A stretch of DNA of 64,000 bases from Oscillatoriales cyanobacterium. GTDB lineage: Bacteria; Cyanobacteriota; Cyanobacteriia; Cyanobacteriales; Microcoleaceae. The notes under the pieces were generated by a model that did not search any database, was not told the DNA's origin, and saw only the letters and a list, made by a program, of their open reading frames with translations. Shown here piece by piece: positions 5,208-47,872 of the stretch. A program made the translations under genes and the position numbers. The stretch is from contig REAP01000032.1 in assembly GCA_004294385.1 (NCBI GenBank), positions 4,098-68,097 on the forward strand, in the 5' to 3' direction. Numbering within the stretch: position 1 is the first letter of the stretch; each line of letters opens with the position of its first letter.

Positions 5208-6197
5208 ATGTCAACACATTTGTTAAAAAGTATGACAGCCAAACTGGAATTAGCAGAGCAACCGTTGTCCAGAACACCAACTTGGATCGCAACTGCTTCA
5301 TTATTTGCCAGCCTAATCCCCCTATCTTTAGCACCAATCCTCGTCAAATTGTGCGAACGAGAAATAGGTTCAAATGCCGTAGCATTCCATCGTGGCTGGA
5401 TCGCTACCATCATCTTTGGGTTGTTGAGCGGACTTGAAGCTTTGGGCCGCCAAAAATCTGATAACCAACCCGTAGAACAGAAGCCTTTTACGAGACGAGA
5501 ATTGGGGCTATTGGTAGCATTGGGAACTTTCGGAGCGACCTACTTCCTCCTGTGGTCTTTGGCGCTGACTCAAACCAACGTTGCCAACGTTACGTTATTT
5601 TGTGGTTTGAACCCACTGTTTGTCGGTTTGGGGGGGTGGTTGTTATTAGGTCGGAGCTATAATAGCAGATTCATTATTGGCATGATCATGGCACTGGGGG
5701 GAGCGATCGCTATGGGATTGGATGACGTGCAGTTCGCCACTAACCAAGTACAAGGTAATGCCCTCGCCTTGCTATCGGGGATTTGTTTTGCTGCGTATCT
5801 GATACTGCTAGAACTGCTACGAGAACGATTTACCACGGCAACCTTATTGCTGTGGCGCTGCGCCTTCACGACTATGTTTGCGTTTCCCGTCCTCGCACTC
5901 GCCGAAGAAACATTGTTTCCCCATTCCTGGATGGGGTGGTTTTTCGTAATTTTGCAAGCCATCTTGTGCCAAGTGTTGGGTCAAGGACTTTTGGCTTACA
6001 GCCTCAGCCAACTGTCGTCAGGGTTCGTCGCCGTCACGCTGCTTTTCGAGCCAGTCCTTGCTTCAATCTTCGCTTGGGTAATTTTCTCTGAACGCTTGGG
6101 TTTCCTTGACTTGGTGGCGTTTGTCGTGATTTTATGCGGTATTTATGTAGCTCAATCGAGTCAATCTGCCGTTAAAGAAACCAGCGAGGTAGCGTAA
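5208..6197 (+). CDS. DMT/EamA family transporter, paralogue of the upstream gene
   Basis: Same architecture: AFHRGWI, GLNPLFV, LFEPVLASIFAWVIFSERL. Confidence 0.85.
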   Translation: MSTHLLKSMTAKLELAEQPLSRTPTWIATASLFASLIPLSLAPILVKLCEREIGSNAVAFHRGWIATIIFGLLSGLEALGRQKSDNQPVEQKPFTRRELGLLVALGTFGATYFLLWSLALTQTNVANVTLFCGLNPLFVGLGGWLLLGRSYNSRFIIGMIMALGGAIAMGLDDVQFATNQVQGNALALLSGICFAAYLILLELLRERFTTATLLLWRCAFTTMFAFPVLALAEETLFPHSWMGWFFVILQAILCQVLGQGLLAYSLSQLSSGFVAVTLLFEPVLASIFAWVIFSERLGFLDLVAFVVILCGIYVAQSSQSAVKETSEVA

Positions 6198-6488
6198 TTA
6201 ATGCCTGAGAGTAGGTGGCGCGATGCTCAAGCAAATGCCCTTGCCATAATGTCATCAGTCCGATCGCAACTGGTGTCCGCTCTATCTGTTGCTGTGATGG
6301 TTTCAGTTCAATTGTCATCTTCATTCCTGAAAGTTGAACAAAGAATTTCAATGGCGTTTCGAGTGTCTTGCCCATTGCTTCGATCTGCTGGCAGACTTTT
6401 TGCAACGATTTGAGAGCAATGCCTGAGCGATCGCGCTCTAAAGATGTCATGCCCAAGACCTCTTTGACTGCACGACGGATGAGTCGGA

Positions 6489-6513
6489 TGTGACATTCAG
6501 CAGCCAGTTGGTG
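6489..6513 (+). repeat. 25-bp direct repeat, copy 2
   Basis: Identical to 2269-2293. Confidence 0.9.
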
Positions 6514-6838
6514 CCCTACACAGATGAATATTGCCGGAGCACTGGTGGGCGATCGCGAAATCAGCAATTTTTCCACTAATCCAAACATATCCTCTCGCGG
6601 ACAGGCTGGACTTTTCCAAGTGGAGGCATCCTATGTCGATGGATCGCCTCCTTCGACTACTACGGCATAACCGCAGCTAATTGCCGAAACAACTATTGCC
6701 CCCATGCGTAAGTCGTAACTTCAATGAAACGATTCCAGGTCAATAGCTTTCCTCCCGTGCGATCGCATTTCAGTAATCCCCAGATTTTCTAATAAAGGGC
6801 TCGTCACCCTTTTAGTAGAAAATCAGACAAAAATCTCA

Positions 6839-8737
6839 TCAAACAACTGGCATCAATTTATTTATTTTGCCCCCACCTTCGGGAGACTTATACTTCGAGC
6901 CATCAGGCATAACAGCGCCTTCGAGCAAAGCACCACTCAGGTCAGAAATGCTAACTTGAGCACCTTTTAGATTTGCACCACTTAGGTAGGCACTATTCAG
7001 ATTAGCACCACTCAAACTAGCATTCGTCAAATTGACGCCGCTCATATTTGCGTTACTCAAGTCCGCACAAATTAAATTAGCGTCACTGAGGTTGGCATTA
7101 CTGAGATTAACCTGACTCAAGCGAGCAAAACCTAGCTTGGCATGGCTGAGATTAGCACCCGCAAGTTTAGCTTGACTGAGGTTAGCATTATCTAAATTGG
7201 CATAACTCAAATTAGCATTACTCAAGTCGCTTTCCATCAAATTGGCTTTACTGAGATTGGCATGAGGGAGATTAATATCTATTAACTCTGCACCAATAGC
7301 ATCTACACCTCTAAGAGAAACACCATCTTTATTCAAATCTTGGAGTGCCAGAATTCTAGCATAGCTAACTTTTACGCTGTGCGCTGCATCAACTGTACTC
7401 CAAGCTTGGTAGTGAAATTGCTTTTTGCGATCCGGAGCTTCCTTAATGAATAAAACTAAAGCAACAACGAGACTGATAGCATCAGCAGTCTCCAAAATCT
7501 CTGCAAGCAGAGAATTTTCCTCCGCGTTTACATAAATTATGATGAACAGAACGGCTGAAACAAAAGCAACTAACCAGGCGGGTTGTGTCCAAAAATTATC
7601 AATGAATTTTTCTAAAATTCCTTTGAGAAATTCACCCAATCGCTGAACCAATGATTGACCCTGAAATTGCTGATAACTATCAGTTATTATTGATACTAAA
7701 GGCTTTTTCTGTTGCTCAGTTGGCGGCTGAAGCGCTTGAGATTCATTCAGTAATTGTGTAGGTGATTCTTTTGGCTGATTGGGGGTGACATCTTTTTCAT
7801 CTGCGACAACCTTTGGTGTAGAAACTGCACCTGCGCCTTTTAACATCAAACCAGTAATTGCTCTGTAGGCATCTGTCCACGCCCGCTTTACTTCAGGAGT
7901 CCAATCTTGCTGGAGAGACTGCTCAAAAGCACTCAGCAGTGCTTCTCCAACTGGGCCGTAATATTTGGGAATTACCCCGTAGCCGATGTGTCTGCCTCCC
8001 AAGGCATTTAGAACAGGTTCTAAAGCTTCTGGAGAGCGGAGATTTTCTACTACCAATACCAAAGCATTAAGGAGCTTCTTCTGTTGAATTTTTATATCTA
8101 TATTGGCAAACAGCGGTTTAAATTCAGGATGAGCGATGAATAGATTTTCGTAGAAGCTAGCGGTAAATTCATCAGCACGAGGTTTGATTTTCTCGAAACT
8201 GCTTTCCAGTAACTCTACGGCTAATTTTGGCTCTTTTTCTGGAACTGATTCTAGTTGGTGATTAGCTGGTATAGTCACCTTTTTATCGGGAATTATCTCT
8301 GTTTCTAATTGAACTTTTTCAGGTGTAGAAACTGCACCTGCGCCTTTTAACATCAAAGCAGTAATAGCTCTGTAGGCATCTGTCCACGCCAGCTTTACTT
8401 CGGGAGTCCAATCTTGCTGGAGAGACTGCTCAAAAGCACTCAGCAGTGCTTCTCCAACTGGGCCGTAATATTTGGGAATTACTCCATAAACGATGTGTCT
8501 GCCTCCCAAGGCATTTAGAACCGGCCCTAAAGCTTCTGGAGAGCGGATATTTTCTACTACTAAAACTAGGGAATTTAACAGTTTTTTCTCTTGATTTCCC
8601 ATATCAGTATTGGCAAATAACGGTTTCACTTCTGGGTGAGCTTTAAAAAGATTCTCGTAGAAGCTGGCTGCAAATTCATTAGCGCGAGGTTTAACTTTAT
8701 CGAAACTTTGCTCTAAAAGTTCAACATTTAAAGACAT
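6839..8737 (-). CDS. Tandem double-globin protein with two TM helices and C-terminal pentapeptide repeats
   Basis: Two copies of a flavohaemoglobin-like globin (SFYENLF..HP..KPLF...Q.KKLL..LVLVVEN...LGGRH..YGV...YY.PVGEALL...W..AY), a hydrophobic hairpin (WLVAFVSAVLFIIIYV; ISLVVALVLFI), then many A(N/D)LS.A-type pentapeptides. Confidence 0.85.
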   Translation of the reverse strand: MSLNVELLEQSFDKVKPRANEFAASFYENLFKAHPEVKPLFANTDMGNQEKKLLNSLVLVVENIRSPEALGPVLNALGGRHIVYGVIPKYYGPVGEALLSAFEQSLQQDWTPEVKLAWTDAYRAITALMLKGAGAVSTPEKVQLETEIIPDKKVTIPANHQLESVPEKEPKLAVELLESSFEKIKPRADEFTASFYENLFIAHPEFKPLFANIDIKIQQKKLLNALVLVVENLRSPEALEPVLNALGGRHIGYGVIPKYYGPVGEALLSAFEQSLQQDWTPEVKRAWTDAYRAITGLMLKGAGAVSTPKVVADEKDVTPNQPKESPTQLLNESQALQPPTEQQKKPLVSIITDSYQQFQGQSLVQRLGEFLKGILEKFIDNFWTQPAWLVAFVSAVLFIIIYVNAEENSLLAEILETADAISLVVALVLFIKEAPDRKKQFHYQAWSTVDAAHSVKVSYARILALQDLNKDGVSLRGVDAIGAELIDINLPHANLSKANLMESDLSNANLSYANLDNANLSQAKLAGANLSHAKLGFARLSQVNLSNANLSDANLICADLSNANMSGVNLTNASLSGANLNSAYLSGANLKGAQVSISDLSGALLEGAVMPDGSKYKSPEGGGKINKLMPVV

Positions 8738-8753
8738 AATTTTTCTTTCCTGA

Positions 8754-10061
8754 TTAGTTGGCTAGAATTATATCAGAGTAAGCAAAAGACCAAACTGGAT
8801 ACATTTTGAAAAACTCTTCAAAGGAGATTTTCAAATCTTTATTTTCATCATATTTTTCCATGTATTCATCAACTTCAGTAGAAGGTAATCCCCACTCTAA
8901 CAATAGGATTTTTAGCTCAAATTCATCAATGTAACCACTTCGATCAATATCTATTTGCTCGAAAATTAATCTGCACTTTTCTTCATTGCTAATATTTTTA
9001 CCCTTGGTTAAACATTCAACTTTTAGTGTTTCTGTTTGTAGTCGTTGTTTAACACCCTTAATTTGCCAGATTTTTTTATAAAATTCATCGAAACTAAATT
9101 CATTAGAATCTGTATTTCGAGCAAGAAATGTATTGATAAAAGAATCTGGAACTTGCCACTCGTGCCAAAGAGTTCTCAATTCGACTTTATCTAAACTTCC
9201 AGTTTTATCTGTATCCAATTGAGCAAAAACTGCTGCTGCGATTGTTTGATCGTCAACTTCATCAGAATTGATTGACAAATTATTACTTATCCATAATTCT
9301 CTCGCATCTTCATCAATTAATGTTTGTCTTTGACTTTCTTTCGTCCAACTTATCCATTCTGCTGCGGTAGGATTCATAATTAACTTGTACAAAGCATTAT
9401 ATCCAAGGACAAAAAGGATAAAAAACAAGTTGCCAGAAGCACCTAATACAGAGGGTAATATCAACACACCAGCCGCGAGAATCGAAGCAGAATAAAGATT
9501 ATCTTTGAAGAGTCCAAAAACAGTAAAAACAAAGTAAAACACTCGACACCAAACGTATGTACTTAGAACTAAAAATGTGTTGATTAACCAAAAATTTGAA
9601 TCCGGTTGTAAGAGGAGATTAATGGCACTATAAAGATGTAAGCTGACAAAGAATAGATATCCTGGAATCATTGCACTCTTGGAGCCAAAAACAATCGGTG
9701 TTTGGTAAAAAGATGAGGTGACGTGACCGATGATGGCTGATAGTGCCATGATCGTCGCGGGTATTTCTGGATTACTACTAAAAAATGCAATCACACCAAA
9801 AACAACCTCTATACTTCCAGAAATTACGTGAGTTCTGATTGATAGTTTCCTCTTGGGTAGCATGAGAAATTTTGGGTGTGGCGGGTTCGTGTAATGGTAG
9901 TACAAAACATAAAAATTACTGAGGATTGATGCGCCACAAAGAATTATTTTTTGATAATATTCTGTTTCCTCTCCTGTAAAAGTTGTACTAAAATAAAAGC
10001 AAGCTATGGCATAAATACTGACAGGCAACAGTAGCAATAAGTTTTTGAAATATACTGGCAT
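8754..10061 (-). CDS. Polytopic (~8 TM) membrane protein with C-terminal EF-hand domain
   Basis: About 230 hydrophobic N-terminal residues; EF-hand loops DTDKTGSLDKVE, DIDRSGYIDEFE, DENKDLKISFEE plus one degenerate loop. Confidence 0.8.
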   Translation of the reverse strand: MPVYFKNLLLLLPVSIYAIACFYFSTTFTGEETEYYQKIILCGASILSNFYVLYYHYTNPPHPKFLMLPKRKLSIRTHVISGSIEVVFGVIAFFSSNPEIPATIMALSAIIGHVTSSFYQTPIVFGSKSAMIPGYLFFVSLHLYSAINLLLQPDSNFWLINTFLVLSTYVWCRVFYFVFTVFGLFKDNLYSASILAAGVLILPSVLGASGNLFFILFVLGYNALYKLIMNPTAAEWISWTKESQRQTLIDEDARELWISNNLSINSDEVDDQTIAAAVFAQLDTDKTGSLDKVELRTLWHEWQVPDSFINTFLARNTDSNEFSFDEFYKKIWQIKGVKQRLQTETLKVECLTKGKNISNEEKCRLIFEQIDIDRSGYIDEFELKILLLEWGLPSTEVDEYMEKYDENKDLKISFEEFFKMYPVWSFAYSDIILAN

Positions 10062-10154
10062 ATCTAGTCTCCTTTTTCCTTCTTGATGATTGTTTTGTAC
10101 TACTTGTCTAATGGTGATAGTTGATTGAAATCGCTTGTTTTTTCAAAAAAGCAA

Positions 10155-10478
10155 TTACAAACTCAAATTTTCCAATTCTTGCCACAGGGTAGCCATAAAG
10201 CCCTCTGCATCCTTGATGCCCATTTCTCCTAAAGCTTTCCACTCTTCACTACTGTAGTCTAAATCGAGTCCCATCACGTCTTGAGTCCAATAGGGCAAAT
10301 TAGATGGGTTTTCCATTAGCTCAGAGGTGAGCTTTAAGATTTCTATTCCGGTAGTATTTTTTCTAACCTTTGTCGCTAAGCAAAAGGAGAGCAATTTTGC
10401 CAAATTACTTTCGGGTGGAATGGATATTAGAAATGCCATATTTTGGGCTAGGATAAATTCATTTAATTTCATTGGCAT
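10155..10478 (-). CDS. Small acidic hypothetical protein (107 aa)
   Basis: Co-oriented ORF between two clear genes; plausible helical sequence; no recognisable motif. Confidence 0.65.
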   Translation of the reverse strand: MPMKLNEFILAQNMAFLISIPPESNLAKLLSFCLATKVRKNTTGIEILKLTSELMENPSNLPYWTQDVMGLDLDYSSEEWKALGEMGIKDAEGFMATLWQELENLSL

Positions 10479-10694: not shown

Positions 10695-13091
10695 CTATAC
10701 TACTTCCACAAACACACCGCTGCGGGCAAACTCCTCTTCTTCAGGCGTGAAGTAAGGAGCTTTATCCATAATCTCAGGGTCAAAGCGGTATGTTTCTTGA
10801 AGGAATTGTCCGGCGATCGCAGCTTCCTCCAACTCCTGGATGTAATCTTCGGCTAGCGTACAAGCCTCCCTGATGCCTTCCTCTTCCCCTTTCACTAACA
10901 GCTTGTGCAGCGTTGCTCTGACCCCTGCCAACCGCGATGCTGGCTTGAGCAGCCCGTAGAGGCGGTATAGGCGATCGACTGATATGCTCAGATGCTTGAG
11001 TGCTTTGCTGCGTGCCAGTTCCGAGTCCAAACTCGGCCAATAGCGGGTAGTGTAGAATGCTTTCTCATCCTTGTGATACCACTCCTCCGATCGAGCAATG
11101 GACGAGGAGACGGTGTTATGCAGCTTCCAGAAAAATAAGCGCAGAGCAGGGCCATCGACAACTGTAGATAGTTTGGCCTCCATTGACACTTCAAAGTTAT
11201 TGAGCTGCGGGTCGCGTCCCAACAACAGATATTCTACTGGGTACATATCCACCTCTTTGTTCTGCACGACGTACATATTCAGGTGGTGACGGCAGTAAGG
11301 GCAGGGATACATGGTAGCAAAACGCTTAAAAAAGTCTTTGAAGACTGCTACTAAAGCTTTTTGCTCTTGCTGCGGCTTGGTAGACACAATTTCAGCCGTG
11401 GTGTGGAAAAAGCGCCACACCGCAGAGCCAATATAGTAGGGGAAGCTGATACGCATCTGGGAATCCTTGATATCACTCCGCCCCAAATACACATCAATGA
11501 ATGACACATACTGGGAAAGCGCCCCTGACTCGCGCCCAAACTCTTGGCGTTCGCGCCGTTTTTGCACGCCATTGAGGTAGTGGTGCGTCAAACGCCATGC
11601 CTGCTTGAGGGCCAGTTGTTGTTTTGGGCTGCATTTAGAAAAGTTTTGTGCCACATCAGATCCATAGCGGTCAAATTCTCCAATTGCCTTGGTGTCTTCG
11701 TACCACTGAGCCAAAGCTGCTTCGTCAGGAACGGTGTTGCTCTGGATATCGGCAGCAGTGCTGACACTGAAGGCCGCTAGCAGTTTCGGCATGAAATCTT
11801 CATACCAGTAAGCTACTGGCATCATCGCACCCTCTATTTCTGCTTCAGCATCGGAGAGGATAACGCGGTTCCAGCGCTTCAGATAATCTTTGGGATCGCC
11901 TTCTGATTTGGGGGGAGGTGGGGCAAGCTCTGCATTCAGCTCCATCTGTCTCAGGCGGTTGAGTTCGTTGATGGCAAGCACGCCCTCGGCGATGTCGCTA
12001 AAGCTGAAATGCTTTTTCTTCATGGTGATGGCGAACTCGACGCCTGCGGCAAATTTCTCCTTGACAGAGATTGATTTACTGCGTGCCTCCTGCATTGCTT
12101 TAGCTTCTGCCAGCATCTCTGGTGTTTTTTCGATCGTCTTCCAGTTCTTGATGCGATCGGACAGTCGGGCGTACTCTTGTTCGATCGATTCAACGACTGC
12201 ATCTAGCAGGGGATGGCAAGCTGTTTCTACGATACCTAAACCCTTGTACAGTGCGATCGCATTCTGCACAAACTGCACAAAGTCGCTGATTTTGTAGGGC
12301 AGATTTTTCACGCGCAGGTGTGTTTCATGGTTGGCCGAGAAACTCTCGCGGAAGCAGCGGTAGGCGGCTCCTTGGATCAGGCGAAATAAACCGATCTGCA
12401 TTTGCAGGCGGGAGGTGGCGCGTTCTTTTTGCTCTTGTGGGTGTTGCGCGAGTAGTTCTTTGAGTCGCGCCACTTCTGGATCGTCGCTGGGTGTTTCCTG
12501 TGCCGGAGATTCGGTAGTCGATAAACTGGTTGCATCGGTGGCCGCCGCTATTTCTGAAGTGACGGTGGCTGCATTATTTGAATGGGAGCTACTAAAAGAA
12601 ATTGGCGAATCTTGATAGCCGCTAGTTATTTCTGATTCATCTGGAACCAGTTTGATGAATTCTTCAAAGTCAATGGAGCCACCGCCATCACTATCGACCT
12701 CATCGATCATTTCTTTGAGTTCTTGATCCGTCACCCCAAACTGGCTCATGACGCTGTGCATCTCGTTGGCAGTGATGCGACCGCTGCCGTCTTCATCAAA
12801 CACGCTGAATGCCAGCTTGAGACGGCTTTTGCGATCGCCTTGCTGGGACAGTATCAGTGTTTTGAATTCCTCAAAATCGATGCTGCCGGACAAGTCAACG
12901 TCCACTTCTTTAATCATGTCGCGCAGCTCTGTTTCGCTCGAACTTTGCCCCAGCGATCGCATCACTTGCCCCAGTTCTTCTGCTGAGATGGCGCCGCTGC
13001 CGTCTGTATCAAATACTTGGAAAGCTTCCCACAGCTTCGTCACCTCTTCTTCAGTCATCACCTTTTTTTCTAGTGCTACAGTTGCCATCAA
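10695..13091 (-). CDS. Calmodulin-like 4xEF-hand protein fused to a C-terminal ERV/ALR-like (FAD sulfhydryl oxidase) domain
   Basis: N-term EAFQVFDTDGSGAISAEELGQVMRSLGQ...ELRDMIKEVDVDLSGSIDFEEF...FDEDGSGRITANE...DSDGGGSIDFEEF; C-term GSAVWRFFH-x32-PCPYC...FFWKLHNTV matches the ERV/ALR signature. Confidence 0.75.
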   Translation of the reverse strand: MMATVALEKKVMTEEEVTKLWEAFQVFDTDGSGAISAEELGQVMRSLGQSSSETELRDMIKEVDVDLSGSIDFEEFKTLILSQQGDRKSRLKLAFSVFDEDGSGRITANEMHSVMSQFGVTDQELKEMIDEVDSDGGGSIDFEEFIKLVPDESEITSGYQDSPISFSSSHSNNAATVTSEIAAATDATSLSTTESPAQETPSDDPEVARLKELLAQHPQEQKERATSRLQMQIGLFRLIQGAAYRCFRESFSANHETHLRVKNLPYKISDFVQFVQNAIALYKGLGIVETACHPLLDAVVESIEQEYARLSDRIKNWKTIEKTPEMLAEAKAMQEARSKSISVKEKFAAGVEFAITMKKKHFSFSDIAEGVLAINELNRLRQMELNAELAPPPPKSEGDPKDYLKRWNRVILSDAEAEIEGAMMPVAYWYEDFMPKLLAAFSVSTAADIQSNTVPDEAALAQWYEDTKAIGEFDRYGSDVAQNFSKCSPKQQLALKQAWRLTHHYLNGVQKRRERQEFGRESGALSQYVSFIDVYLGRSDIKDSQMRISFPYYIGSAVWRFFHTTAEIVSTKPQQEQKALVAVFKDFFKRFATMYPCPYCRHHLNMYVVQNKEVDMYPVEYLLLGRDPQLNNFEVSMEAKLSTVVDGPALRLFFWKLHNTVSSSIARSEEWYHKDEKAFYTTRYWPSLDSELARSKALKHLSISVDRLYRLYGLLKPASRLAGVRATLHKLLVKGEEEGIREACTLAEDYIQELEEAAIAGQFLQETYRFDPEIMDKAPYFTPEEEEFARSGVFVEVV

Positions 13092-13279
13092 TTAATCCTC
13101 ACCAAGTTTTAAGTACAATAAGGGAGCATTTTGCTCATCATTTATCGTCAACGAAGTAGAGCCATCAATCCGTTATTATTTTCGACCTCATTTGGCTCTG
13201 TACTTAACTAATTAGAGTATACTGAAACTAAGAAACCTAAATATTGATATAAAAGTTTACAAAAAAATAGGAGATATTA

Positions 13280-13324
13280 TTTCCTACTTTTCCTACTTTT
13301 CCTACTTTTCCTACTTTTCCTACT
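13280..13324 (+). repeat. Tandem 9-mer (TTTCCTACT)x5
   Basis: Directly read in the intergenic region upstream of the calmodulin-Erv gene. Confidence 0.9.
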
Positions 13325-13631
13325 TTAAGGAAGCGCAAAATTGGTGTCAACTTAAGGTCAAAAGCATCGATCGCATTCATCAGAATGTAGGTTAATGTAG
13401 CTGCTACGCCCATCGAGACAAAGACCAAAGTTGCAATTGCCAGTTGTTGCAGACAAGCTAGCGATCGCGCTGTATCAGTTGAGGAAAATATATCGCTAAG
13501 GAATGTTTCACACGTCCTAGCTCTTCTGCATTGAATTCTTTTTGTGAAGCGGCAGAAGTTGCTGTGGTTCCATCCTGGGATGTATAGCAACCGCCAAGGT
13601 GGTTAAGGCATTTATGTGATCGTTCCCTGAG

Positions 13632-13840: not shown

Positions 13841-13861
13841 AGCACGGTCTTTGACCGTGCT
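13841..13861 (-). terminator. Probable intrinsic terminator of the nir-nrt operon
   Basis: agcacggtc-ttt-gaccgtgct 9-bp stem followed on the minus strand by a U run, ~160 nt downstream of the nrtD stop. Confidence 0.55.
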
Positions 13862-14021: not shown

Positions 14022-15734
14022 CTATTTGCCAGTTTTAACTTCTAATTTGCCGCCATTGCTGGGGCTAAAAGTTACTTGGAATTCAGCAGTCTTTTCAGCA
14101 CCTGCTGGGGAACCGGCAGGTGTTTGCAAAACTGGTAGGGGAGTTTCTTTGAGGAAGTCTTTAGCTACTTTATTTGTGGGTTCAAACTGCACGATGTCGC
14201 CGTTTTGCTTGACTTTGACCCGATAAGTCAAACTTTCGGTGAAGCTGGGAGTTGTTTTCCAACTTTGGTCAATTTGTGCATATAACTTTTGTCCGATCGC
14301 ATCAAGTTGCGCTTTGTCAGAAATCTCTGAGGTAGCAGCAGTCGGTGCAGTTGTCGTAGCAGCAGTCGGTGCAGTTGTCGCAACAGCAGTCGGTGCGGTT
14401 GTCGCAGCAGCAGTCGGTGCGGTTGTCGCAGCAGCAGTCGGTGCGGTTGTCGCAGCAGCAGTTGGTGCGGTTGTCGCAGCAGCAGTTGGTGCGGTTGTCG
14501 CAGCAGTCGGTGCAGTTGTCACAGCAGTTGGTGCAGTTGTCACAGCAGCAGTCGGTGCAGCCAGAGTGGGAGGAGAACTAATTACCGCAGCCGGCGCAAT
14601 CGGTGCAACTTCTGCTGATTTTTGCTTTTGTTGACTAGCAACAGAAGACATATTGACAGCAGCTAAAACACTCATCGCGAACAACCAAGATACTCCCAAC
14701 ACGCTACCTTTGATGCGCGAGGCTTCAGAAGGTTCCGAAGCGTGAGGCTGAAATGCTGCCGGCGCGACAGTTCTCGGTAATCCCACCGGGACAGATTCGG
14801 ATCTGAAGGCTGATGCAGGTAAGGGTGGGAGGGCGTTGTCAGTTTCTTCGTCGCCATCTGTGTGGGCGTAGCGAGAGAACAAGAACTCTAAAGCAAAGTT
14901 TCGCAGTTCGTAGTATTTTGGATCTTCCATAATCCGCGTGCGGTTGCGGGGACGGCTGAAGGGAATGTGTACATCTTCGCCAATCGAAGCCGCTGGGCCG
15001 TTGGTCATCATCACGATGCGATCGGACAAAAACAAAGCTTCATCAATATCGTGAGTGATCATGATGATCGTAATTTTGTGATCCTGCCAAATTTTGAGCA
15101 ATTCTTCTTGCAACTCTTCCCGCGTAATTGGGTCTAGAGCTCCGAAAGGTTCGTCTAAAATTAACAGTTTGGGGCGAGTTGCTAGGGCACGGGCGATCGC
15201 TACCCGCTGTTTCATCCCCCCGGACAACTGGCCTGGTCTTTTCTCGCAAGCTTCCGTAAGTCCTACCAATTCCAGGTGTTCCTGAACAATTTTGTTGTGT
15301 TCCTCCGCAGACTTTTCGGCGTAAACAGTTTCAACACCGAGGTGGATGTTTTCCGTAGCAGTCAGCCAAGGGAGTAGGGAGTAGTTTTGGAACACTACCA
15401 TGCGATCGGGGCCTGGTTCAGTAATCCGCACGCCTTGGAGTGCTACTTCTCCGTCTGTAGGCCCATTGAATCCGGCGATCATATTGAGTAAAGTGGATTT
15501 GCCACAGCCGGAGTGACCAATCAAGCAAATAAATTCGCCTTCATTAATATCAAGGTTTACACCGTCAAGAATGACCGCCGGCCCTTTAGCGGTTGGGTAG
15601 ACTTTTGATACATCTTTAATAGATAGAAAGGGTGTGGCGGCGCTGGTGGTATCACTGACAGATTTACCTGTTTTTTGGCTATTTAGAGTTTGCATTTTTT
15701 CGGAGTAGGGGTTTGGGGTTTCTGGATTAGGCAT
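14022..15734 (-). CDS. nrtD: Nitrate/nitrite ABC transporter ATP-binding subunit D with a long C-terminal extension (TM helix, PTAAATTA repeats, globular domain)
   Basis: Walker A GHSGCGKS, signature LSGGMKQR, LLILDEPF; last gene of nirA-nrtABC run. Alternative start at 15695 (MQTLNS). Confidence 0.85.
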   Translation of the reverse strand: MPNPETPNPYSEKMQTLNSQKTGKSVSDTTSAATPFLSIKDVSKVYPTAKGPAVILDGVNLDINEGEFICLIGHSGCGKSTLLNMIAGFNGPTDGEVALQGVRITEPGPDRMVVFQNYSLLPWLTATENIHLGVETVYAEKSAEEHNKIVQEHLELVGLTEACEKRPGQLSGGMKQRVAIARALATRPKLLILDEPFGALDPITREELQEELLKIWQDHKITIIMITHDIDEALFLSDRIVMMTNGPAASIGEDVHIPFSRPRNRTRIMEDPKYYELRNFALEFLFSRYAHTDGDEETDNALPPLPASAFRSESVPVGLPRTVAPAAFQPHASEPSEASRIKGSVLGVSWLFAMSVLAAVNMSSVASQQKQKSAEVAPIAPAAVISSPPTLAAPTAAVTTAPTAVTTAPTAATTAPTAAATTAPTAAATTAPTAAATTAPTAAATTAPTAVATTAPTAATTTAPTAATSEISDKAQLDAIGQKLYAQIDQSWKTTPSFTESLTYRVKVKQNGDIVQFEPTNKVAKDFLKETPLPVLQTPAGSPAGAEKTAEFQVTFSPSNGGKLEVKTGK

Positions 15735-15785
15735 AGGAAATGGGATGAAAATAGTGCACGAGTTTTTAGTTCAAGACTTGGAAAT

Positions 15786-15890
15786 GGGGAATTGGGCATC
15801 GGGAATTGAGCATTGGGAATTGGGCATTGGGCATTGGGCATTGGGGCATTTTCTTCCTTCTTCCTTCTTCCTTCTTCCTTCTTCCTTCTT
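15786..15890 (+). repeat. STRR-type heptamer runs (ATTGGG[A/C])n and (TTCTTCC)n
   Basis: Directly read between nrtD and nrtC. Confidence 0.8.
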
Positions 15891-15891
15891 T

Positions 15892-17937
15892 TTATGCTGC
15901 GGGCAGTCTAATTGAACATTGACTGCCGATTTGATCGATTAAGATTTCTTCAATGCGAACGCTGCGTTTGATTTTGACTTTGTGCAGGTAGTCGATCGGG
16001 TCGTCTAGATTAAAGACAGTGCCATCAAATAGCTCGATACTGCGGCGAACGCGAGCGATATCCGGCAAACCCAATTCGCGTACTGCTTGACCAAAAACAT
16101 CTGGTCGCAAAACTCGATCGACCACTTCCACCCAATTTTTCGGGAAAGGAATCAGTCCCCAACGGGCCATTTGCGCCATCACCCACACCATTTCAAGACG
16201 GTCTGGACAATTAGTTTGGTCAACGTAGAATTGGTTGAAGTTGTAGACCATTTCCGGTGCGGCCGACGTACCGTTGTTGTATGGGTCGAGGAAGCCCGGA
16301 CGGATGTCTTTTGGATCGGCACCGATGTATTGTTCTTGGCATATCAATCCTAGGACTTCTTCGCGGTTACGGCGATCGTCACAGTAGTCGCAGGCTTCCA
16401 AAAGGGCTTTGACGAGGGCGAGGTGAGTTTGGGGATATTTCTGGGCCCACTCTTCACTAACACCAAGGACTTTTTCGATGTGACCTGGCAGAATATCCAG
16501 GGAACGGGCCATGACAAAACCTGTACCTTCGTTGACTGCACGGGAGTTCCAGGGATCGCCTGCACAGTAACCGTCAATATTACCTGCTTTTAAATTGGAC
16601 ACCATCTGTGGCGGTGGAATGACTGTCAAGTTCGTATCGAGGTCGGGGTCGATGCCGCCGGCCGCCAGCCAGTAGCGGAACAGCAGGTTGTGCATGGAGG
16701 CGGAGTGTACCATGCCCAAGGTGTGAACTGTGTCGGGGGTGTTGTTGATCGCCTCTTTGAAATCTGCCAGCGTCCGAATTCCTTGATTGTAGAGGTGTTT
16801 GCCGAAAACAATCGAATTGCCATTCCGGGACAAGGTTAAGGCGCTACAGACGGGAAAAGGGGCTTCACCGTCTAGACCGAGTAGCATGGCGATCGGCATT
16901 CCTGCGACCATTTGGGCCGCGTCCAGCCGTCCTTGGGCTACTCCTTTGGCGATCGTTTTCCAGCTAGGTTCCCGGCTGAGGGTGACTTCTTCCAAGCCGT
17001 GGGCTTTGAAGAAGCCTTTTTCTTTGGCTACTACTAACGGGGCGCAGTCAGTGAGGGGGATAAAGCCGATATCCAGGTTGACTTTTTCCAAGCCGTTGCG
17101 AGAGACAATTGGACTTGCTTGTTGCGCTGATTTTTGTTGTGCGGCGCGGCGCTGTTTGACTCGTTTTTGCTGGTTCAGGAAGTAAACCATTTCGTTGCGT
17201 AGGGCGTAGTAACTGGGATGGTTTACTACTTCCATGCGTTTGCGAGGACGGGGAATATTCACTTCGAGAATTTGCCCGATTTGTGCTTCTGGCCCGTTGG
17301 TTAACATCACGATGCGATCGCTCAACAATAAAGCCTCATCAACGTCGTGCGTTACCATCACCCCAGTTACTTTGCTTTCTTCGCAAATTTTCATCAACTG
17401 GTCTTGCAAACCGCCACGAGTTAAAGCATCCAAAGCACCAAAAGGTTCATCTAGCAACAGCAATTTGGGGCGAATGGCGAGGGCACGGGCGATCGCAACT
17501 CTTTGTTTCATCCCCCCAGAAATTTCGCTAGGGCGTTTGTCGGCGGCTTGTCGCAATCCCACTAATGCAATGTGGTGTTCGATAATCAAGTCTCGGTCTT
17601 CTTTAGAGATATCTTTATAGATTTCCTCGACTGCTAGGGCAATATTTTCGCGGACTGTCAGCCAAGGTAGCAGGGAGTAGTTTTGAAACACTACCATGCG
17701 ATCGGGGCCAGGTTCCCGGACTTCGCGCCCTTCTAGAGTAATCCCGCCCTGAGTTGCTTGATCGAGTCCGGCGATGATATTTAACAGTGTCGATTTGCCA
17801 CAGCCGGAGTGTCCGATCAAGGAGATAAATTCTCCCTTTTTAATTTTCAGTTCAATGTTTTTGAGCGCAATATATTGCTCACCATTTGGCAAGTTAAATA
17901 CGCGGTCTACGTGGTCTACTTCTACGAATACTGACAT
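15892..17937 (-). CDS. nrtC: Nitrate/nitrite ABC transporter ATP-binding subunit C with C-terminal NrtA-like regulatory domain
   Basis: GHSGCGKS, ISGGMKQR, LLDEPF; C-terminal GFIPLTDCAPLVVAKEKGFF...SMHNLLFRYWLAAGGIDP domain. Confidence 0.95.
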   Translation of the reverse strand: MSVFVEVDHVDRVFNLPNGEQYIALKNIELKIKKGEFISLIGHSGCGKSTLLNIIAGLDQATQGGITLEGREVREPGPDRMVVFQNYSLLPWLTVRENIALAVEEIYKDISKEDRDLIIEHHIALVGLRQAADKRPSEISGGMKQRVAIARALAIRPKLLLLDEPFGALDALTRGGLQDQLMKICEESKVTGVMVTHDVDEALLLSDRIVMLTNGPEAQIGQILEVNIPRPRKRMEVVNHPSYYALRNEMVYFLNQQKRVKQRRAAQQKSAQQASPIVSRNGLEKVNLDIGFIPLTDCAPLVVAKEKGFFKAHGLEEVTLSREPSWKTIAKGVAQGRLDAAQMVAGMPIAMLLGLDGEAPFPVCSALTLSRNGNSIVFGKHLYNQGIRTLADFKEAINNTPDTVHTLGMVHSASMHNLLFRYWLAAGGIDPDLDTNLTVIPPPQMVSNLKAGNIDGYCAGDPWNSRAVNEGTGFVMARSLDILPGHIEKVLGVSEEWAQKYPQTHLALVKALLEACDYCDDRRNREEVLGLICQEQYIGADPKDIRPGFLDPYNNGTSAAPEMVYNFNQFYVDQTNCPDRLEMVWVMAQMARWGLIPFPKNWVEVVDRVLRPDVFGQAVRELGLPDIARVRRSIELFDGTVFNLDDPIDYLHKVKIKRSVRIEEILIDQIGSQCSIRLPAA

Positions 17938-17985
17938 AGTTTTTTACGGTAGTTTTTACTTAAATTAGTAGATGCTAATTATTTT

Positions 17986-18150
17986 AATTGCGAATTGGGA
18001 ATTGGGAATTGCGAATTGCGAATTGCGAATTGGGAATTGGGAATTGCAAATTGCAAATTGCTAATTTGTTAGTTTTATTACCGATTCCCGATTCCCGATT
18101 CCCGATTACCGATTCCCCATTCCCGATTCCCCATTCCCCATTCCCAAATT
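17986..18150. repeat. Two oppositely oriented heptamer blocks (AATTG[G/C]G and ATTCCC[G/C])
   Basis: 17986-18066 and 18084-18150 form imperfect inverted blocks between nrtC and nrtB. Confidence 0.8.
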
Positions 18151-19020
18151 CTACTTCTGTTCTTCAGGAACAACTTTGGATGCGACGAAACCTACAAGTC
18201 TATCGAGAATCAAACCGACAATTCCGACATAAACCACAGCCAGAATCACCGCGCTGAGTCGAGAACTATTATAAGAATCCCAGATGAAGAAACCGATGCC
18301 GACCCCACCGACCAACATTTCCGCAGCTACAATTGCCAGCCAAGATAAACCGATACCAATTCTTAAGCCTGTGAAGATGTAAGGAACTGAAGAAGGGAGC
18401 AGGATTTTCCAGAAGTATTTTTGGTTGGGAAGGCGCAATACACGGGCGACGTTTCTGTAATCTTGGGGTATTTGTTGAACGCCTACTGTCGTGTTAATTA
18501 GAATCGGCCAAATTGCTGTAATCAAGATTACGAAAAGTGCCGAAACTTCGTTAGCTTTCATCCCCAGCCCTTCAAAGGGATTGAACTGTTGAAAGACTGC
18601 TAGTGCGATCGGTAGCCAAGCCAGTGGCGGGATAGTTCTGAATACTTGAAACAGCGGGTCTAAAGCATCGAACATTAAAGAGTTTGTGCCGATTAATATC
18701 CCCAAACCAATGCCAAGCACTGCTGCTAGAGTAAAGCCGATCGCCACCCGCTGCAAGCTAGCCGCAAGTTGCCAAAACAAGCCTTTGTCGGTGCCACCTC
18801 TGTCAAAGAACGGATTGACAATCAATTCCCAGCTTTCTTGGACAGCTTTGATTGGTCCCGGCAAAGTGGACTCTGGACTGTGGCAGAGGATTTGCCAAAC
18901 TACGAGTAGAACTGTAATTGCTACCAGTGGACGGAGTATTTTTTGGCGATTTTTCTGAAGCTGATTCAGAACGTAATTTACAGGATTTTTGCTTTTAGAA
19001 ACAGAGAGATTAGTTGCCAT
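18151..19020 (-). CDS. nrtB: Nitrate/nitrite ABC transporter permease
   Basis: SLQRVAIGF, FRTIPPLAWLPIAL, IWPILINTTVGVQQIP, FTGLRIGIGLSWLAIVAAEM. Confidence 0.95.
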   Translation of the reverse strand: MATNLSVSKSKNPVNYVLNQLQKNRQKILRPLVAITVLLVVWQILCHSPESTLPGPIKAVQESWELIVNPFFDRGGTDKGLFWQLAASLQRVAIGFTLAAVLGIGLGILIGTNSLMFDALDPLFQVFRTIPPLAWLPIALAVFQQFNPFEGLGMKANEVSALFVILITAIWPILINTTVGVQQIPQDYRNVARVLRLPNQKYFWKILLPSSVPYIFTGLRIGIGLSWLAIVAAEMLVGGVGIGFFIWDSYNSSRLSAVILAVVYVGIVGLILDRLVGFVASKVVPEEQK

Positions 19021-19082
19021 TTGTCTGTTTGGTATGAAAAATTAATAGTGAATAGATCATTACTTTTAGTAGATGCTTCGAC

Positions 19083-19248
19083 GTGCTAATGGTTGACTTT
19101 AATTGATCAACCATTAGCACTTAGTCTGGGTGCATCTCAGTTTTGCAAATATATTAGTAGGGGCGAAGCATGACCGCAGTAAATCTCTGCTTATCACTAA
19201 TAAATTGTCTGCGGTCATGCTTCGCCCTTACAACATTGAGATGCACCC
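19083..19248. repeat. Nested stem-loops between nrtA and nrtB
   Basis: gtgctaatggttga/tcaaccattagcac; gggtgcatctca/tgagatgcaccc enclosing gtaggggcgaagcatgaccgcag/ctgcggtcatgcttcgcccttac (GTAG-type palindrome). Confidence 0.8.
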
Positions 19249-19265
19249 CTTAGTCTCTTACCTGA

Positions 19266-20594: not shown

Positions 20595-20641
20595 GTGTCT
20601 TGAATTGTTGGTGTACTTGAGATTATTTGAGATTTGTGTAA

Positions 20642-43162: not shown

Positions 43163-43313
43163 AAATAGGCGATCGGCACGTCGAGCCTGAGTATTAATCT
43201 TACCGCAGTTAAGAGGACTTATGAAAAGAAACTCGGTTTTTACGATAAATCAGAGATTTGGCAGCGAGGCATCGCAGAAACCGGGTTTCTAGCCTCCGGT
43301 GCATAAATCGCAA

Positions 43314-44681: not shown

Positions 44682-44866
44682 AAAATGTATCCACAGTAAA
44701 TTTTTGACTATTATAGTATATTTTAAGACATTACATTAATTTTTGTTAAAATTGGTTTAATTTTGGAAAAAAACACAAGATAAAATAAGATATTTTAAGC
44801 TTGTGTTCGCTTGATAAACTATGTATAGTGAATTCTATGATTTTGTTTTAAACAAGGCACTTCAAT

Positions 44867-47866: not shown

Positions 47867-47872
47867 TAATCG

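What the first reader, a model, noticed from the sequence alone, without database searches (positions are those of the whole stretch)
10695..13091. Eukaryote-style calmodulin fused to an ERV/ALR sulfhydryl-oxidase domain in a bacterium
The N-terminal ~140 aa closely track calmodulin (ELG.VMRSLGQ...EL.DMI.EVD.D.SG.IDFEEF). The C-terminus has G-x3-W-x3-H, then YPCPYC, then HN, which is the FAD-binding and redox signature of Erv1/ALR/QSOX and poxvirus E10R. That family is known mainly from eukaryotes and large DNA viruses. No signal peptide is evident, implying a cytoplasmic disulfide-forming enzyme under Ca2+ control. The gene also looks more GC-rich than its downstream neighbours, hinting at separate origin.
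Basis: partly seen in the sequence, partly recalled or inferred. Interest (0 to 1): 0.85.

Follow-up and report, generated by a model that had tools for sequence, protein, structure and literature searches.

The report
Calmodulin-like domain fused to Erv thiol oxidase
A filamentous cyanobacterium encodes a conserved, unstudied 798-residue protein that joins a four-site calcium sensor very like calmodulin to an Erv/ALR-type flavin thiol-oxidase core, so it may convert calcium signals into disulfide or peroxide chemistry inside a bacterial cell.

Summary
Window 10695-13091 (-) is one 798-aa ORF. Residues 12-150 are 49% identical to human calmodulin and carry four canonical EF-hand loops. Residues 546-700 match Pfam Erv1/Alr above the curated cut-off and contain G-x3-W-x3-H, YPCPYC and WKLHN. 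A family profile finds only solved Erv1/ALR/Erv2/viral Erv structures in the PDB.

The gene is not a one-off. Relatives occur in 283 bacterial species genomes; the 80 closest are Nostocales and Oscillatoriales at 70-96% identity, with dN/dS of 0.07-0.17. Nostoc punctiforme has one. Databases name it automatically ("EF-hand domain-containing protein", "thiol oxidase", wrongly "histidine kinase"). I found no paper on it.

The roughly 590-aa non-EF module also occurs in Rhodobacterales, in a few protists and in giant viruses. The protist forms start like N-myristoylated proteins.

There is no signal peptide, no membrane segment and no conserved gene neighbour. The GC argument for foreign origin fails, because the AT-rich outlier is the downstream neighbour.

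Best reading, by inference: a cytoplasmic, Ca2+-gated, FAD-dependent sulfhydryl oxidase. The Foldseek fold test against the PDB was inconclusive. I class it as an uncharacterised variant of a known enzyme kind.

The parts
10695..13091 (-). Whole ORF, 798 aa plus stop. The probable true start is ATG at 13088-13086.
13096..13103 (-). Shine-Dalgarno-like GGTGAGGA, 8 nt upstream of the ATG.
   Evidence: read directly from the sequence
13322..13350 (-). Sigma-70-like promoter match (TTGACA-17-TAAAGT). With the terminator-like hairpin at 13841-13861 after nrtD, it suggests the gene is transcribed on its own. This is only a consensus match.
   Evidence: A metatranscriptome contig reaches 13186, upstream of the start codon.
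12642..13058 (-). Calmodulin-like domain, residues 12-150, made of two EF-hand pairs.
12975..13010 (-). EF-hand loop 1, DTDGSGAISAEE.
   Evidence: Loop positions 1, 3 and 12 are invariant in 121 sequences.
12867..12902 (-). EF-hand loop 2, DVDLSGSIDFEE.
12762..12797 (-). EF-hand loop 3, DEDGSGRITANE.
12660..12695 (-). EF-hand loop 4, DSDGGGSIDFEE.
12483..12635 (-). Variable Ser/Thr/Ala-rich linker, residues 153-203, predicted disordered.
   Evidence: pLDDT below 50; unconserved
12009..12428 (-). First conserved domain of the module, residues 222-361: helices plus a small beta-sheet. No known family. It contains the near-invariant F236, L238, A243, Y244, R245 and G241.
11919..12008 (-). Candidate regulatory helix, residues 362-391 (FSFSDIAEGVLAINELNRLRQMEL). 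It is highly conserved but placed with low confidence. The E-L-x-R-L-R motif is found only in members that carry the N-terminal EF-hand-type domain.
   Evidence: The regulatory role is inferred.
11457..11918 (-). Second conserved helical domain, residues 392-545. No known family and no detectable similarity to the Erv core, so it is not a QSOX-type pseudo-Erv by sequence.
10992..11456 (-). Erv/ALR sulfhydryl-oxidase core, residues 546-700. Predicted helices: a1 551-570, a2 574-594, a3 598-608, a4 647-664, a5 688-697.
11403..11417 (-). W559-x3-H563 in helix a1, the position of the Erv flavin-contact residues. Invariant in the 58-sequence family alignment.
11292..11309 (-). YPCPYC. C597-x-x-C600 is the putative redox-active disulfide, at the start of helix a3.
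   Evidence: 100% conserved in 121 close homologues. CPYC is present in nearly all distant members.
11154..11267 (-). Family-specific insertion of about 38 residues between Erv helices a3 and a4 (residues 609-646). It explains why Pfam aligns only profile positions 2-56.
11115..11129 (-). W655-K-L-H658-N659 in helix a4, the Erv 'HN' flavin-contact motif. W, K, H and N are invariant in the family.
10698..10991 (-). C-terminal helical hairpin domain, residues 701-798. No known family.

Best explanation
The gene encodes a soluble cytoplasmic enzyme. A calmodulin-like Ca2+ sensor is tethered by a disordered linker to a large all-helical catalytic module, whose heart is an Erv/ALR-type FAD-binding bundle with a CPYC redox-active disulfide.

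Proposed mechanism:
1. At resting Ca2+ the module is held inactive or inaccessible.
2. A cytosolic Ca2+ transient loads the four EF-hands.
3. The sensor then clamps an intramolecular amphipathic helix. The best candidate is residues 362-391 (...GVLAINELNRLRQMEL), and the logic is that of CDPK or NOX5.
4. This exposes or activates the CPYC/FAD site.
5. The site oxidises a dithiol substrate (a protein, or a small thiol) to a disulfide and passes the electrons through FAD to O2, giving H2O2, or to another acceptor.

Shown here: domain identities, conservation of the Ca2+ ligands and of the Erv catalytic and flavin-contact residues, absence of export signals, strong purifying selection, and stand-alone gene organisation.

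Inferred: FAD binding, oxidase activity, Ca2+ dependence, the identity of the regulatory helix, the substrate and the electron acceptor.
For: - EF-hands: four loops with every Ca2+-ligand position conserved in 121 sequences; 49% identity to calmodulin.
- Erv core: PF04777 scores above the gathering threshold.
- PDB profile search: the family profile of residues 540-705 puts only Erv-family structures on top: AtErv1 2hj3 4.4e-7, yeast Erv1 6e-6, mimivirus R596 3e-4, ALR 1e-3, Erv2 5e-3, ASFV pB119L 0.035.
- Catalytic residues: W559, H563, E567, W655, K656, H658 and N659 are invariant, and C597/C600 are at least 90% conserved, across bacteria, eukaryotes and virus-like members.
- Structure model: pTM 0.88 for residues 205-798, with helices in Erv order and CxxC at the N-terminus of a3.
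- Location: no TM segment or signal peptide.
- Selection and spread: dN/dS 0.07-0.17; 283 species genomes.
- Candidate regulatory helix: the ELxRLR helix sits in a low-confidence loop. It is present in 18 of 18 distant members with a detectable EF domain and in 120 of 120 close homologues, but is absent from 35 of 40 members without one.
- Expression: near-identical fragments occur in freshwater metatranscriptomes.
- Precedent: Ca2+-sensor fusions to redox enzymes in cyanobacteria are documented for NADPH oxidase and NO synthase (PMC7016017).
Against: - No biochemical data exist.
- Foldseek of the 594-residue model found no significant PDB match and no Erv structure in the top 50, so the fold is supported only by sequence homology and helix topology.
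- The family lacks a second, 'shuttle' cysteine pair and the CX16C structural disulfide of ALR/Erv1.
- A thiol oxidase in a reducing, thioredoxin-rich cytoplasm would be futile or harmful unless it is tightly gated.
- The motif/EF-domain co-occurrence comes from one clade. It may therefore be a single historical event rather than independent support.
- Metatranscriptome contigs can contain DNA.
Confidence: 0.6

Rival explanations
1. Ca2+-binding scaffold or redox sensor. The Erv-like core no longer turns over as an oxidase. Its CPYC acts as a redox-sensitive switch or as a structural element, and the protein buffers or relays Ca2+ without generating disulfides.
For: - No shuttle disulfide and no ALR-type structural disulfide.
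- A 38-residue insertion within the Erv core.
- No Foldseek match to solved Erv enzymes.
- Large extra domains of unknown function.
Against: Every residue class that contacts FAD in Erv enzymes, and both active-site cysteines, are invariant or nearly so from cyanobacteria to giant-virus-like proteins at 20-25% overall identity. That pattern is typical of retained catalysis. Viral Erv enzymes without shuttle cysteines are known to be active (established knowledge for ASFV pB119L and vaccinia E10R).
Confidence: 0.17
2. Same enzyme, but working as a dehydrogenase rather than an H2O2-forming oxidase. Electrons from substrate thiols go to a cellular acceptor (a cytochrome c-type protein, a quinone or another flavoprotein partner) bound by the unknown helical domains.
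For: Erv1/ALR prefer cytochrome c to O2 in vivo (established knowledge; PMC2064786 is listed). The conserved flanking domains (residues 222-545 and 701-798) are unexplained and could be docking surfaces.
Against: There is no conserved gene neighbour to suggest a partner. Soluble c-type cytochromes of cyanobacteria are lumenal or periplasmic, whereas this protein has no export signal.
Confidence: 0.15
3. Exported oxidative-folding catalyst of the periplasm or thylakoid lumen, secreted by a non-classical route.
For: Disulfide formation in bacteria normally occurs outside the cytoplasm (established knowledge).
Against: There is no signal peptide, Tat motif or membrane segment. Calmodulin-type EF-hands would be permanently saturated at extracytoplasmic Ca2+ levels. 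Eukaryotic homologues start with MGxxxS/A/C-type N-termini, typical of cytosolic N-myristoylated proteins.
Confidence: 0.04
4. Recent foreign insertion from a eukaryote or a virus, or an assembly contaminant, with no function in the host, as hinted by the GC difference.
For: The gene's GC (0.507) exceeds the window mean (0.44). Relatives exist in protists and giant viruses.
Against: - nrtC and other flanking genes have the same GC and GC3.
- The 80 closest of 283 species hits are all Nostocales or Oscillatoriales at 70-96% identity.
- dN/dS is 0.07-0.17.
- The gene is embedded in typical cyanobacterial DNA next to nirA-nrtABCD.
- An ancient inter-domain transfer is likely, but its direction is unresolved.
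Confidence: 0.03

Closest known systems
Erv1 / ALR / Erv2 FAD-linked sulfhydryl oxidases (Pfam PF04777; PDB 2hj3, 4e0h, 1oqc, 1jr8)
   Same: - Same core signature: G-x3-W-x3-H in helix 1, YPCxxC at the start of helix 3, and W..HN in helix 4.
- These are the best and only significant PDB sequence matches.
- The Pfam match is above the curated threshold.
   Different: - Those enzymes are 100-200 aa homodimeric proteins of the mitochondrial intermembrane space or the ER, with a shuttle disulfide (N-terminal CxxC or C-terminal CxC). ALR/Erv1 also have a CX16C structural disulfide.
- Here the core is buried in an 800-aa cytoplasmic protein and has a 38-aa insertion.
- It has no second conserved cysteine pair, two unknown flanking domains and a Ca2+ sensor.
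Giant-virus Erv proteins: mimivirus R596 (PDB 3gwn/3td7), ASFV pB119L (3gwl), and the uncharacterised Yasminevirus A0A5K0UAY3
   Same: - These are cytoplasmic Erv enzymes that lack eukaryote-type shuttle arms.
- R596 likewise carries an extra non-Erv domain.
- Yasminevirus A0A5K0UAY3 matches the whole 590-aa module structurally (Foldseek E=7.8e-20, TMq 0.57).
- A giant-virus MAG contig encodes residues 220-689 at 24% identity.
   Different: - The viral forms have no EF-hands and carry long low-complexity inserts.
- R596 and pB119L share only the core.
- The function of the Yasminevirus-type protein is unknown, and it is mis-named 'histidine kinase'.
Calmodulin, and the calmodulin-like regulatory domains of CDPKs and NOX5/DUOX
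   Same: - Four canonical EF-hands in two pairs, 49% identical to calmodulin.
- As in CDPK and NOX5, the sensor is covalently fused to the enzyme it presumably controls.
- Cyanobacterial calmodulin-like domains fused to NADPH oxidase and NO synthase are on record (PMC7016017; PMC3591440).
   Different: - It is not a free-standing calmodulin.
- The output domain is a thiol oxidase, a fusion not mentioned in that survey's main text.
- Intramolecular activation is only inferred.
QSOX (quiescin sulfhydryl oxidase: Trx + pseudo-Erv + Erv)
   Same: A multidomain Erv enzyme in which an N-terminal accessory domain on a flexible linker cooperates with the Erv core, and in which a helical domain precedes the Erv domain.
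   Different: - There is no thioredoxin domain.
- The preceding helical domains show no profile similarity to the Erv core (hhalign probability 0.2 or less).
- QSOX is secreted or Golgi-located, whereas this protein has no export signal.
Known cyanobacterial Ca2+-binding proteins CSE and CcbP
   Same: Ca2+-binding proteins largely restricted to filamentous cyanobacteria. CSE is an EF-hand protein (PMC13578307).
   Different: CSE is a small two-EF-hand protein without an enzyme domain, and CcbP is not a canonical EF-hand protein. That 2026 paper states that only these two have been analysed in Nostoc.

Membership tests
Erv1/ALR sulfhydryl oxidase family (PF04777) | Significant match to the family profile, above the curated threshold | tested here: met
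   40.8 bits for the whole protein and 46.4 bits (E=5e-12) for residues 542-699, against a cut-off of 27.6. The family profile hits solved Erv1/ALR/Erv2/R596 structures at 4e-7 to 5e-3.
Erv1/ALR sulfhydryl oxidase family (PF04777) | Redox-active CxxC next to the flavin, at the N-terminus of helix 3 | tested here: met
   YPC597PYC600 lies directly before predicted helix 598-608. It is 100% conserved in 121 close homologues and at least 90% conserved in the 58-sequence wide alignment.
Erv1/ALR sulfhydryl oxidase family (PF04777) | Flavin-contact signature residues (W-x3-H in helix 1; H-N in helix 4) | tested here: met
   W559, H563, H658 and N659 are invariant in alignment A1. They align with the corresponding residues of AtErv1 and yeast Erv1.
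Erv1/ALR sulfhydryl oxidase family (PF04777) | Four-helix bundle plus a fifth helix (the Erv fold) | tested here: inconclusive
   The AlphaFold models (pLDDT about 90-98 in the core) give five helices in Erv order, with a 38-aa insertion between a3 and a4. Foldseek of the 594-aa model returned no PDB hit with E below 1e-3 and no Erv entry in the top 50.
Erv1/ALR sulfhydryl oxidase family (PF04777) | Bound FAD and thiol:O2 (or thiol:cytochrome c) oxidoreductase activity | not testable with these tools
   Requires purified protein.
Erv1/Erv2/QSOX subtypes | A second 'shuttle' disulfide on a flexible arm or a Trx domain; CX16C structural disulfide (ALR/Erv1) | tested here: not met
   The only other conserved cysteines are the single residues C292, C487 and C744, and only within cyanobacteria. 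There is no second Cys pair family-wide and no Cys after the HN motif. There is no Trx domain. It is therefore a member of the Erv superfamily but of none of these subtypes.
Calmodulin / calmodulin-like EF-hand domains | Four canonical 12-residue EF loops in two pairs, with acidic ligands at positions 1, 3, 5 and 12 | tested here: met
   The loops are at residues 28-39, 64-75, 99-110 and 133-144. Positions 1 and 12 are invariant or nearly so in 121 sequences. Pfam finds 4 EF-hand_1 stretches.
Calmodulin / calmodulin-like EF-hand domains | High full-length similarity to calmodulin | tested here: met
   49% identity over 142 aa, E=5e-47. All top PDB sequence and structure hits are calmodulins.
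Calmodulin proper | A free-standing protein of about 149 aa that acts in trans on many targets | tested here: not met
   The domain is the N-terminus of a 798-aa polypeptide in all 120 listed homologues. It is a calmodulin-like domain, not a calmodulin.
Calmodulin / calmodulin-like EF-hand domains | Ca2+ binding and a Ca2+-induced conformational change | not testable with these tools
   Requires ITC, 45Ca overlay or NMR.
Histidine kinase (a name attached to several database records of this family) | HisKA/DHp and HATPase_c domains | tested here: not met
   Neither domain appears in the Pfam scans at E up to 0.1 or up to 10. The name is an annotation error that has been propagated, even to Yasminevirus.

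The most novel reading that the evidence does not exclude
This could be the founding bacterial example of a Ca2+-gated cytoplasmic disulfide and H2O2 generator. It would turn Ca2+ transients (for example at light-to-dark shifts or other stresses in filamentous cyanobacteria) directly into thiol oxidation of thioredoxin-controlled targets, using NOX5/CDPK-style logic built on an Erv core.

It would also belong to a so far unrecognised 'large Erv' family of about 590 aa. That family is shared by cyanobacteria, Rhodobacterales, a few protists (with N-termini that look N-myristoylated) and giant viruses, and its two extra domains are new folds.
Probability: 0.35. Interest if true: 0.8.

Novelty: new variant of a known kind. 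Interest (0 to 1): 0.6.

Why it matters
Erv/ALR oxidases are textbook eukaryotic and large-DNA-virus enzymes. Bacteria are thought to make disulfides outside the cytoplasm, with DsbA/DsbB or VKOR.

A conserved cytoplasmic Erv enzyme in multicellular cyanobacteria, wired to a sensor as calmodulin-like as any bacterial protein, would give two things:
- a direct molecular link between Ca2+ signalling and thiol redox control in a phototroph;
- a concrete effector for cyanobacterial Ca2+ transients. So far only CSE and CcbP have been studied as Ca2+-binding proteins in Nostoc (PMC13578307).

The patchy distribution across bacteria, protists and giant viruses also bears on two open questions: where calmodulin-like domains came from (PMC7016017 argues for a cyanobacterial or actinobacterial origin), and where viral Erv genes came from.

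In practice, a Ca2+-switchable cytoplasmic sulfhydryl oxidase could be useful for controlled disulfide formation in bacterial expression hosts, where Erv1p is already used for that purpose (PMC2946281).

Tried and rejected
1. Foldseek of the full-length model against the PDB returned only calmodulins in the top 50, so it said nothing about the C-terminus.
2. Foldseek of the 205-798 model against the PDB gave no hit with E below 1e-3 and no Erv entry listed. I do not read this as refutation. The query is a large all-helical protein with an inserted Erv core, and sequence-profile evidence for Erv is strong. The fold test nevertheless remains open.
3. QSOX-like internal duplication (a pseudo-Erv domain before the Erv domain): hhalign of residues 222-362, 392-545 and 700-798 against the Erv region gave probabilities of 0.2 or less. 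Rejected at the sequence level.
4. Conserved operon partner. Neighbours differ in Oscillatoria PCC 7112, in Tolypothrix and in the window. tblastn of the window's neighbours against 86 related loci found the EF-hand membrane protein in none of them, and found nrtC/nrtD only as weak ABC-ATPase matches (29-41% identity) in two loci. Rejected.
5. The downstream EF-hand membrane protein as a recent duplicate of the sensor domain: only 31% identity over one EF pair. Rejected.
6. GC content as a sign of recent transfer. Rejected.
7. Weak Pfam matches for the unknown domains at E up to 10: only a chance-level Baculo_ME53 hit at 0.11.
8. Literature. Eight searches (combinations of Erv1, sulfhydryl oxidase, EF-hand, calmodulin-like, cyanobacteria and Nostoc, plus the accessions B2IWJ9, ACC81453, WP_012409444 and K9VSB3) found no study of this protein. 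One paper notes in passing that PF04777 occurs in Nostocales and Oscillatoriophycideae (PMC10598087).
9. Direction of inter-domain transfer. A midpoint-rooted NJ tree places the EF-hand-bearing bacterial clade inside a grade of protist-like and virus-like sequences. The tree has no support values and most leaves are unlabelled metagenomic proteins, so I draw no conclusion.
Full report
**1. What is in the sequence**

Window 10695..13091 (minus strand) is a single 798-codon ORF. The listed start is TTG at 13091. An ATG follows immediately at 13088, 8 nt downstream of GGTGAGGA, and many homologues are 797 aa long, so the ATG is the likely start.

A terminator-like hairpin follows the upstream nrtD gene, and a sigma-70-like match lies at 13322-13350. 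Neighbours are not conserved in other genomes. The gene therefore looks like an independent unit.

The surroundings are typical of a cyanobacterium. nirA-nrtA-nrtB-nrtC-nrtD lies at 14022-22516 on the same strand. The DNA is found 100% in microbial-mat metagenomes.

**2. N-terminal domain**

- Pfam finds four EF-hands between residues 19 and 150 (EF-hand_7 E=4.5e-30).
- The domain is 49% identical (71% similar) to human calmodulin over 142 residues, E=5e-47.
- Every top hit in the PDB, by sequence and by structure, is a calmodulin.
- The four 12-residue loops (DTDGSGAISAEE, DVDLSGSIDFEE, DEDGSGRITANE, DSDGGGSIDFEE) have Asp at position 1, Asp or Asn at 3, and Glu at 12 in essentially all of 121 sequences. 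All four sites look competent for Ca2+.
- A 50-residue Ser/Thr/Ala-rich linker (153-203) is unconserved and predicted disordered.

**3. Erv core**

- Residues 546-700 match Pfam PF04777 (Erv1/Alr) at 46.4 bits, E=5e-12, against a cut-off of 27.6. The whole protein scores 40.8 bits.
- I built a profile from 16 diverse family members for residues 540-705 and searched it against all PDB sequences. The only significant hits were Arabidopsis Erv1 (4.4e-7), yeast Erv1, mimivirus R596, rat and human ALR, and yeast Erv2, with ASFV pB119L just below. Unrelated proteins start at E=0.2.
- In a 58-sequence alignment reaching down to about 20% identity, W559, H563, E567, W655, K656, H658 and N659 are invariant, and Y595-P-C-P-Y-C600 is at least 90% conserved.
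- The AlphaFold models are confident: pLDDT 78.9 and pTM 0.76 for the full length, and pLDDT 86.5 and pTM 0.88 for residues 205-798. They place helices at 551-570, 574-594, 598-608, 647-664 and 688-697. This is the Erv order, with CxxC at the N-terminus of the third helix.
- A family-specific insertion of about 38 residues lies between helices 3 and 4. It explains why Pfam aligns only the first 56 profile positions.

**4.

Foldseek of the full-length model was swamped by calmodulins. Foldseek of the 205-798 model against the PDB gave nothing below E=1e-3 and no Erv entry in the list. I report this as inconclusive, not as refutation. The query is a 594-residue all-helical protein, the core carries an insertion, and I could not obtain coordinates to superpose the core alone. 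Homology to Erv rests on sequence and profile evidence plus helix topology.

**5. The rest of the protein**

Residues 222-361, 392-545 and 701-798 are conserved and confidently folded. They match no Pfam family, even at E up to 10, and no PDB structure. By hhalign they are not diverged copies of the Erv domain, so the QSOX-type pseudo-Erv idea is not supported.

The BFVD search gave one strong match: a 1140-aa Yasminevirus protein, wrongly named 'histidine kinase'. It covers the whole module (E=7.8e-20, TMq 0.57).

**6. Distribution**

- A search with the full protein listed 120 proteins of 72-98% identity, all from Nostocales and Oscillatoriales.
- A scan of one genome per species found relatives in 283 species. 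The best 80 are all filamentous cyanobacteria, and they include a 96%-identical copy in a bin labelled Tychonema sp. BBK16.
- Nostoc punctiforme ATCC 29133 has an orthologue, ACC81453.1 / B2IWJ9.
- An exhaustive search of 50%-identity representatives with residues 200-798 found only 231 clusters, so the family is small.
- Those clusters include:
  (a) EF-hand-bearing forms of 750-790 aa in other bacteria, for example Ruegeria arenilitoris and a Pseudomonadota MAG, one of them on a 4.9-Mb bacterial contig;
  (b) eukaryotic forms: Chlorokybus atmophyticus (862 aa, EF-hands, 55% identity), the choanoflagellate Didymoeca costata and the thraustochytrid Hondaea fermentalgiana. The 620-670-aa forms start MGN/MGC/MGS/MGT/MGA..., which resembles N-myristoylation signals;
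  (c) AT-rich forms of 730-1480 aa with low-complexity inserts. One lies on a gene-dense 198-kb contig next to an actin gene. Giant-virus contigs in IMG/VR also carry the module.
- A rough NJ tree groups all the EF-hand forms in one clade, nested among the protist-like and virus-like sequences. The tree is not robust enough to infer the direction of transfer.

**7. Selection and expression**

- Pairwise dN/dS against nine cyanobacterial orthologues is 0.07-0.17.
- Two freshwater metatranscriptomes contain low-depth contigs, 97-100% identical, that tile parts of the gene and about 95 nt upstream of the start. This is compatible with transcription, but DNA carry-over cannot be excluded.

**8. 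GC**

The gene has GC 0.507 and GC3 0.564, against 0.44 for the window. nrtC (0.502/0.534) and several other genes are similar. The deviant genes are the downstream ones, 8754-10061 (0.342/0.287) and 6839-8737 (GC3 0.335). Given the vertical distribution as well, the hint of separate origin is not supported for any recent time scale.

**9. How it probably works**

Shown:
- an intact four-site Ca2+ sensor;
- an intact Erv catalytic signature;
- no export signal or membrane segment;
- strong constraint on both domains.

Inferred: a cytoplasmic FAD-dependent thiol oxidase whose activity depends on Ca2+.

A specific, testable proposal concerns residues 362-391 (FSFSDIAEGVLAINELNRLRQMEL). This segment is almost invariant among cyanobacteria, yet both models place it with pLDDT below 55. 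Its E-[LMI]-x-[RK]-[LMQ]-[RSH] motif is present in 18 of 18 distant members with a detectable EF domain and in 120 of 120 close homologues. It is absent from 35 of 40 members without such a domain. Of the five exceptions, one is a truncated fragment, three are members of the same clade with a degenerate N-terminal domain, and one is a probable chance match.

That is the behaviour expected of an intramolecular target or autoinhibitory helix, as in CDPKs and NOX5. Because all motif-bearing sequences form one clade, however, the association may reflect a single ancestry event.

The substrate and the electron acceptor are unknown. There is no shuttle disulfide, so substrates must reach CPYC directly or through a partner.

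From my own recollection, not tested here: Anabaena shows cytosolic Ca2+ transients at light-to-dark transitions (Torrecilla et al. 2004). That makes oxidation of thioredoxin-regulated targets an attractive candidate role.

**10. Comparison with what is known**

It works like a sensor-fused redox enzyme (NOX5, DUOX, CDPK logic). By sequence criteria it is a member of the Erv/ALR superfamily, but it belongs to none of the described subtypes (Erv1/ALR, Erv2, QSOX, poxvirus E10R).

A survey of bacterial calmodulin-like domains lists cyanobacterial fusions to 7TM, Tic110-like, NADPH oxidase and NO synthase domains. It does not mention Erv in its text (PMC7016017).

A 2023 paper notes, from Pfam's taxonomic table, that PF04777 occurs in Nostocales, Oscillatoriophycideae, Rhizobiales and Rhodobacterales (PMC10598087).

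A 2026 paper states that only CSE and CcbP have been analysed as Ca2+-binding proteins in Nostoc (PMC13578307).

Databases name the protein automatically as 'EF-hand domain-containing protein', 'thiol oxidase', 'ERV1/ALR-related protein' or, wrongly, 'histidine kinase'.

**11. Verdict**

The domain-level interpretation is right. The functional reading is plausible but untested. The GC argument is wrong, and the Foldseek fold test is inconclusive.

The gene is one member of an already sequenced but unstudied family. I rate it a new variant of a known kind (the Erv oxidases), with interest 0.6. A redox or Ca2+-signalling specialist would find it notable, and it is directly testable in Nostoc punctiforme.

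Noticed in passing
window 8754-10061 (-): A 435-aa protein with a hydrophobic multi-pass N-terminal half and two EF-hand pairs in the C-terminal half.

It is very AT-rich (GC 0.342, GC3 0.287). It is absent from the flanks of all 86 related loci and is only 31% identical to the target's sensor domain.

It resembles the '7TM + calmodulin-like EF-hand' architecture reported for cyanobacteria (PMC7016017). This is a second Ca2+-sensor gene within 3 kb, and possibly recently acquired.
   Followed up: partly
window 6839-8737 (-): A 632-aa fusion of globin domains (two stretches, E=2e-34) with pentapeptide repeats (E=1e-34). GC3 is low (0.335).
   Followed up: no
window 14022-15734 (-), repeat at 14334-14560: An NrtD-like ABC ATPase with an unusual C-terminal extension of about 300 aa. 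The extension contains a 24-bp tandem repeat (9.7 copies, 91% matches) that encodes (A/T)TAPTAA units, followed by a small C-terminal domain.
   Followed up: no
window 26703-34565 (-) and 24684-26654 (-): A 2620-aa protein with DUF7948, SBBP beta-propeller repeats, a subtilase S8 domain, a PPC domain and RTX Ca2+-binding repeats. Next to it is a 656-aa SBBP + RTX protein. GC skew is strong (0.50) at 30-31 kb.
   Followed up: no
window 43001-49000: A stretch of about 6 kb with markedly low GC (0.33-0.38, against 0.44 for the window). I did not examine it.
   Followed up: no
proteins P0133, P0136, P0137, P0138, P0141, P0142, P0143, P0145 (eukaryote-type homologues): The 620-670-aa homologues without EF-hands begin MGN/MGC/MGG/MGS/MGT/MGA. 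These N-termini resemble N-myristoylation (plus palmitoylation) signals and suggest membrane-anchored cytosolic Erv proteins in protists. Named sources are Didymoeca costata and Hondaea fermentalgiana.
   Followed up: partly
locus L084 (ENA contig_28379, 198 kb), gene at 6001-10449: A 1482-aa AT-rich homologue of the Erv module. It lies in a gene-dense region next to an actin gene and many ORFs without Pfam hits, which suggests a giant virus. This fits the Yasminevirus structural match and the GVMAG hit.
   Followed up: partly
database records of the family (e.g. P0003, P0004, P0013, P0108, P0351; Yasminevirus A0A5K0UAY3): Several NCBI records call these proteins 'histidine kinase' or 'signal transduction protein'. 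No HisKA or HATPase domain is present. The error has been propagated across cyanobacteria and into a giant-virus genome.
   Followed up: yes
locus L074 (Tychonema sp. BBK16 BIN6), gene at 6001-8394: The closest genome copy (96% identity) sits in a bin labelled Tychonema, whereas another Tychonema (LEGE 06208) is only 78% identical. The gene order around it differs from the window. The bin label, or the taxonomy of the window organism, deserves a check.
   Followed up: no
window 13280-13326 and 15787-15890: Short intergenic tandem repeats: TTTCCTACT x5.2, GGGCATT x9 and TTCTTCC x5.7.
   Followed up: no
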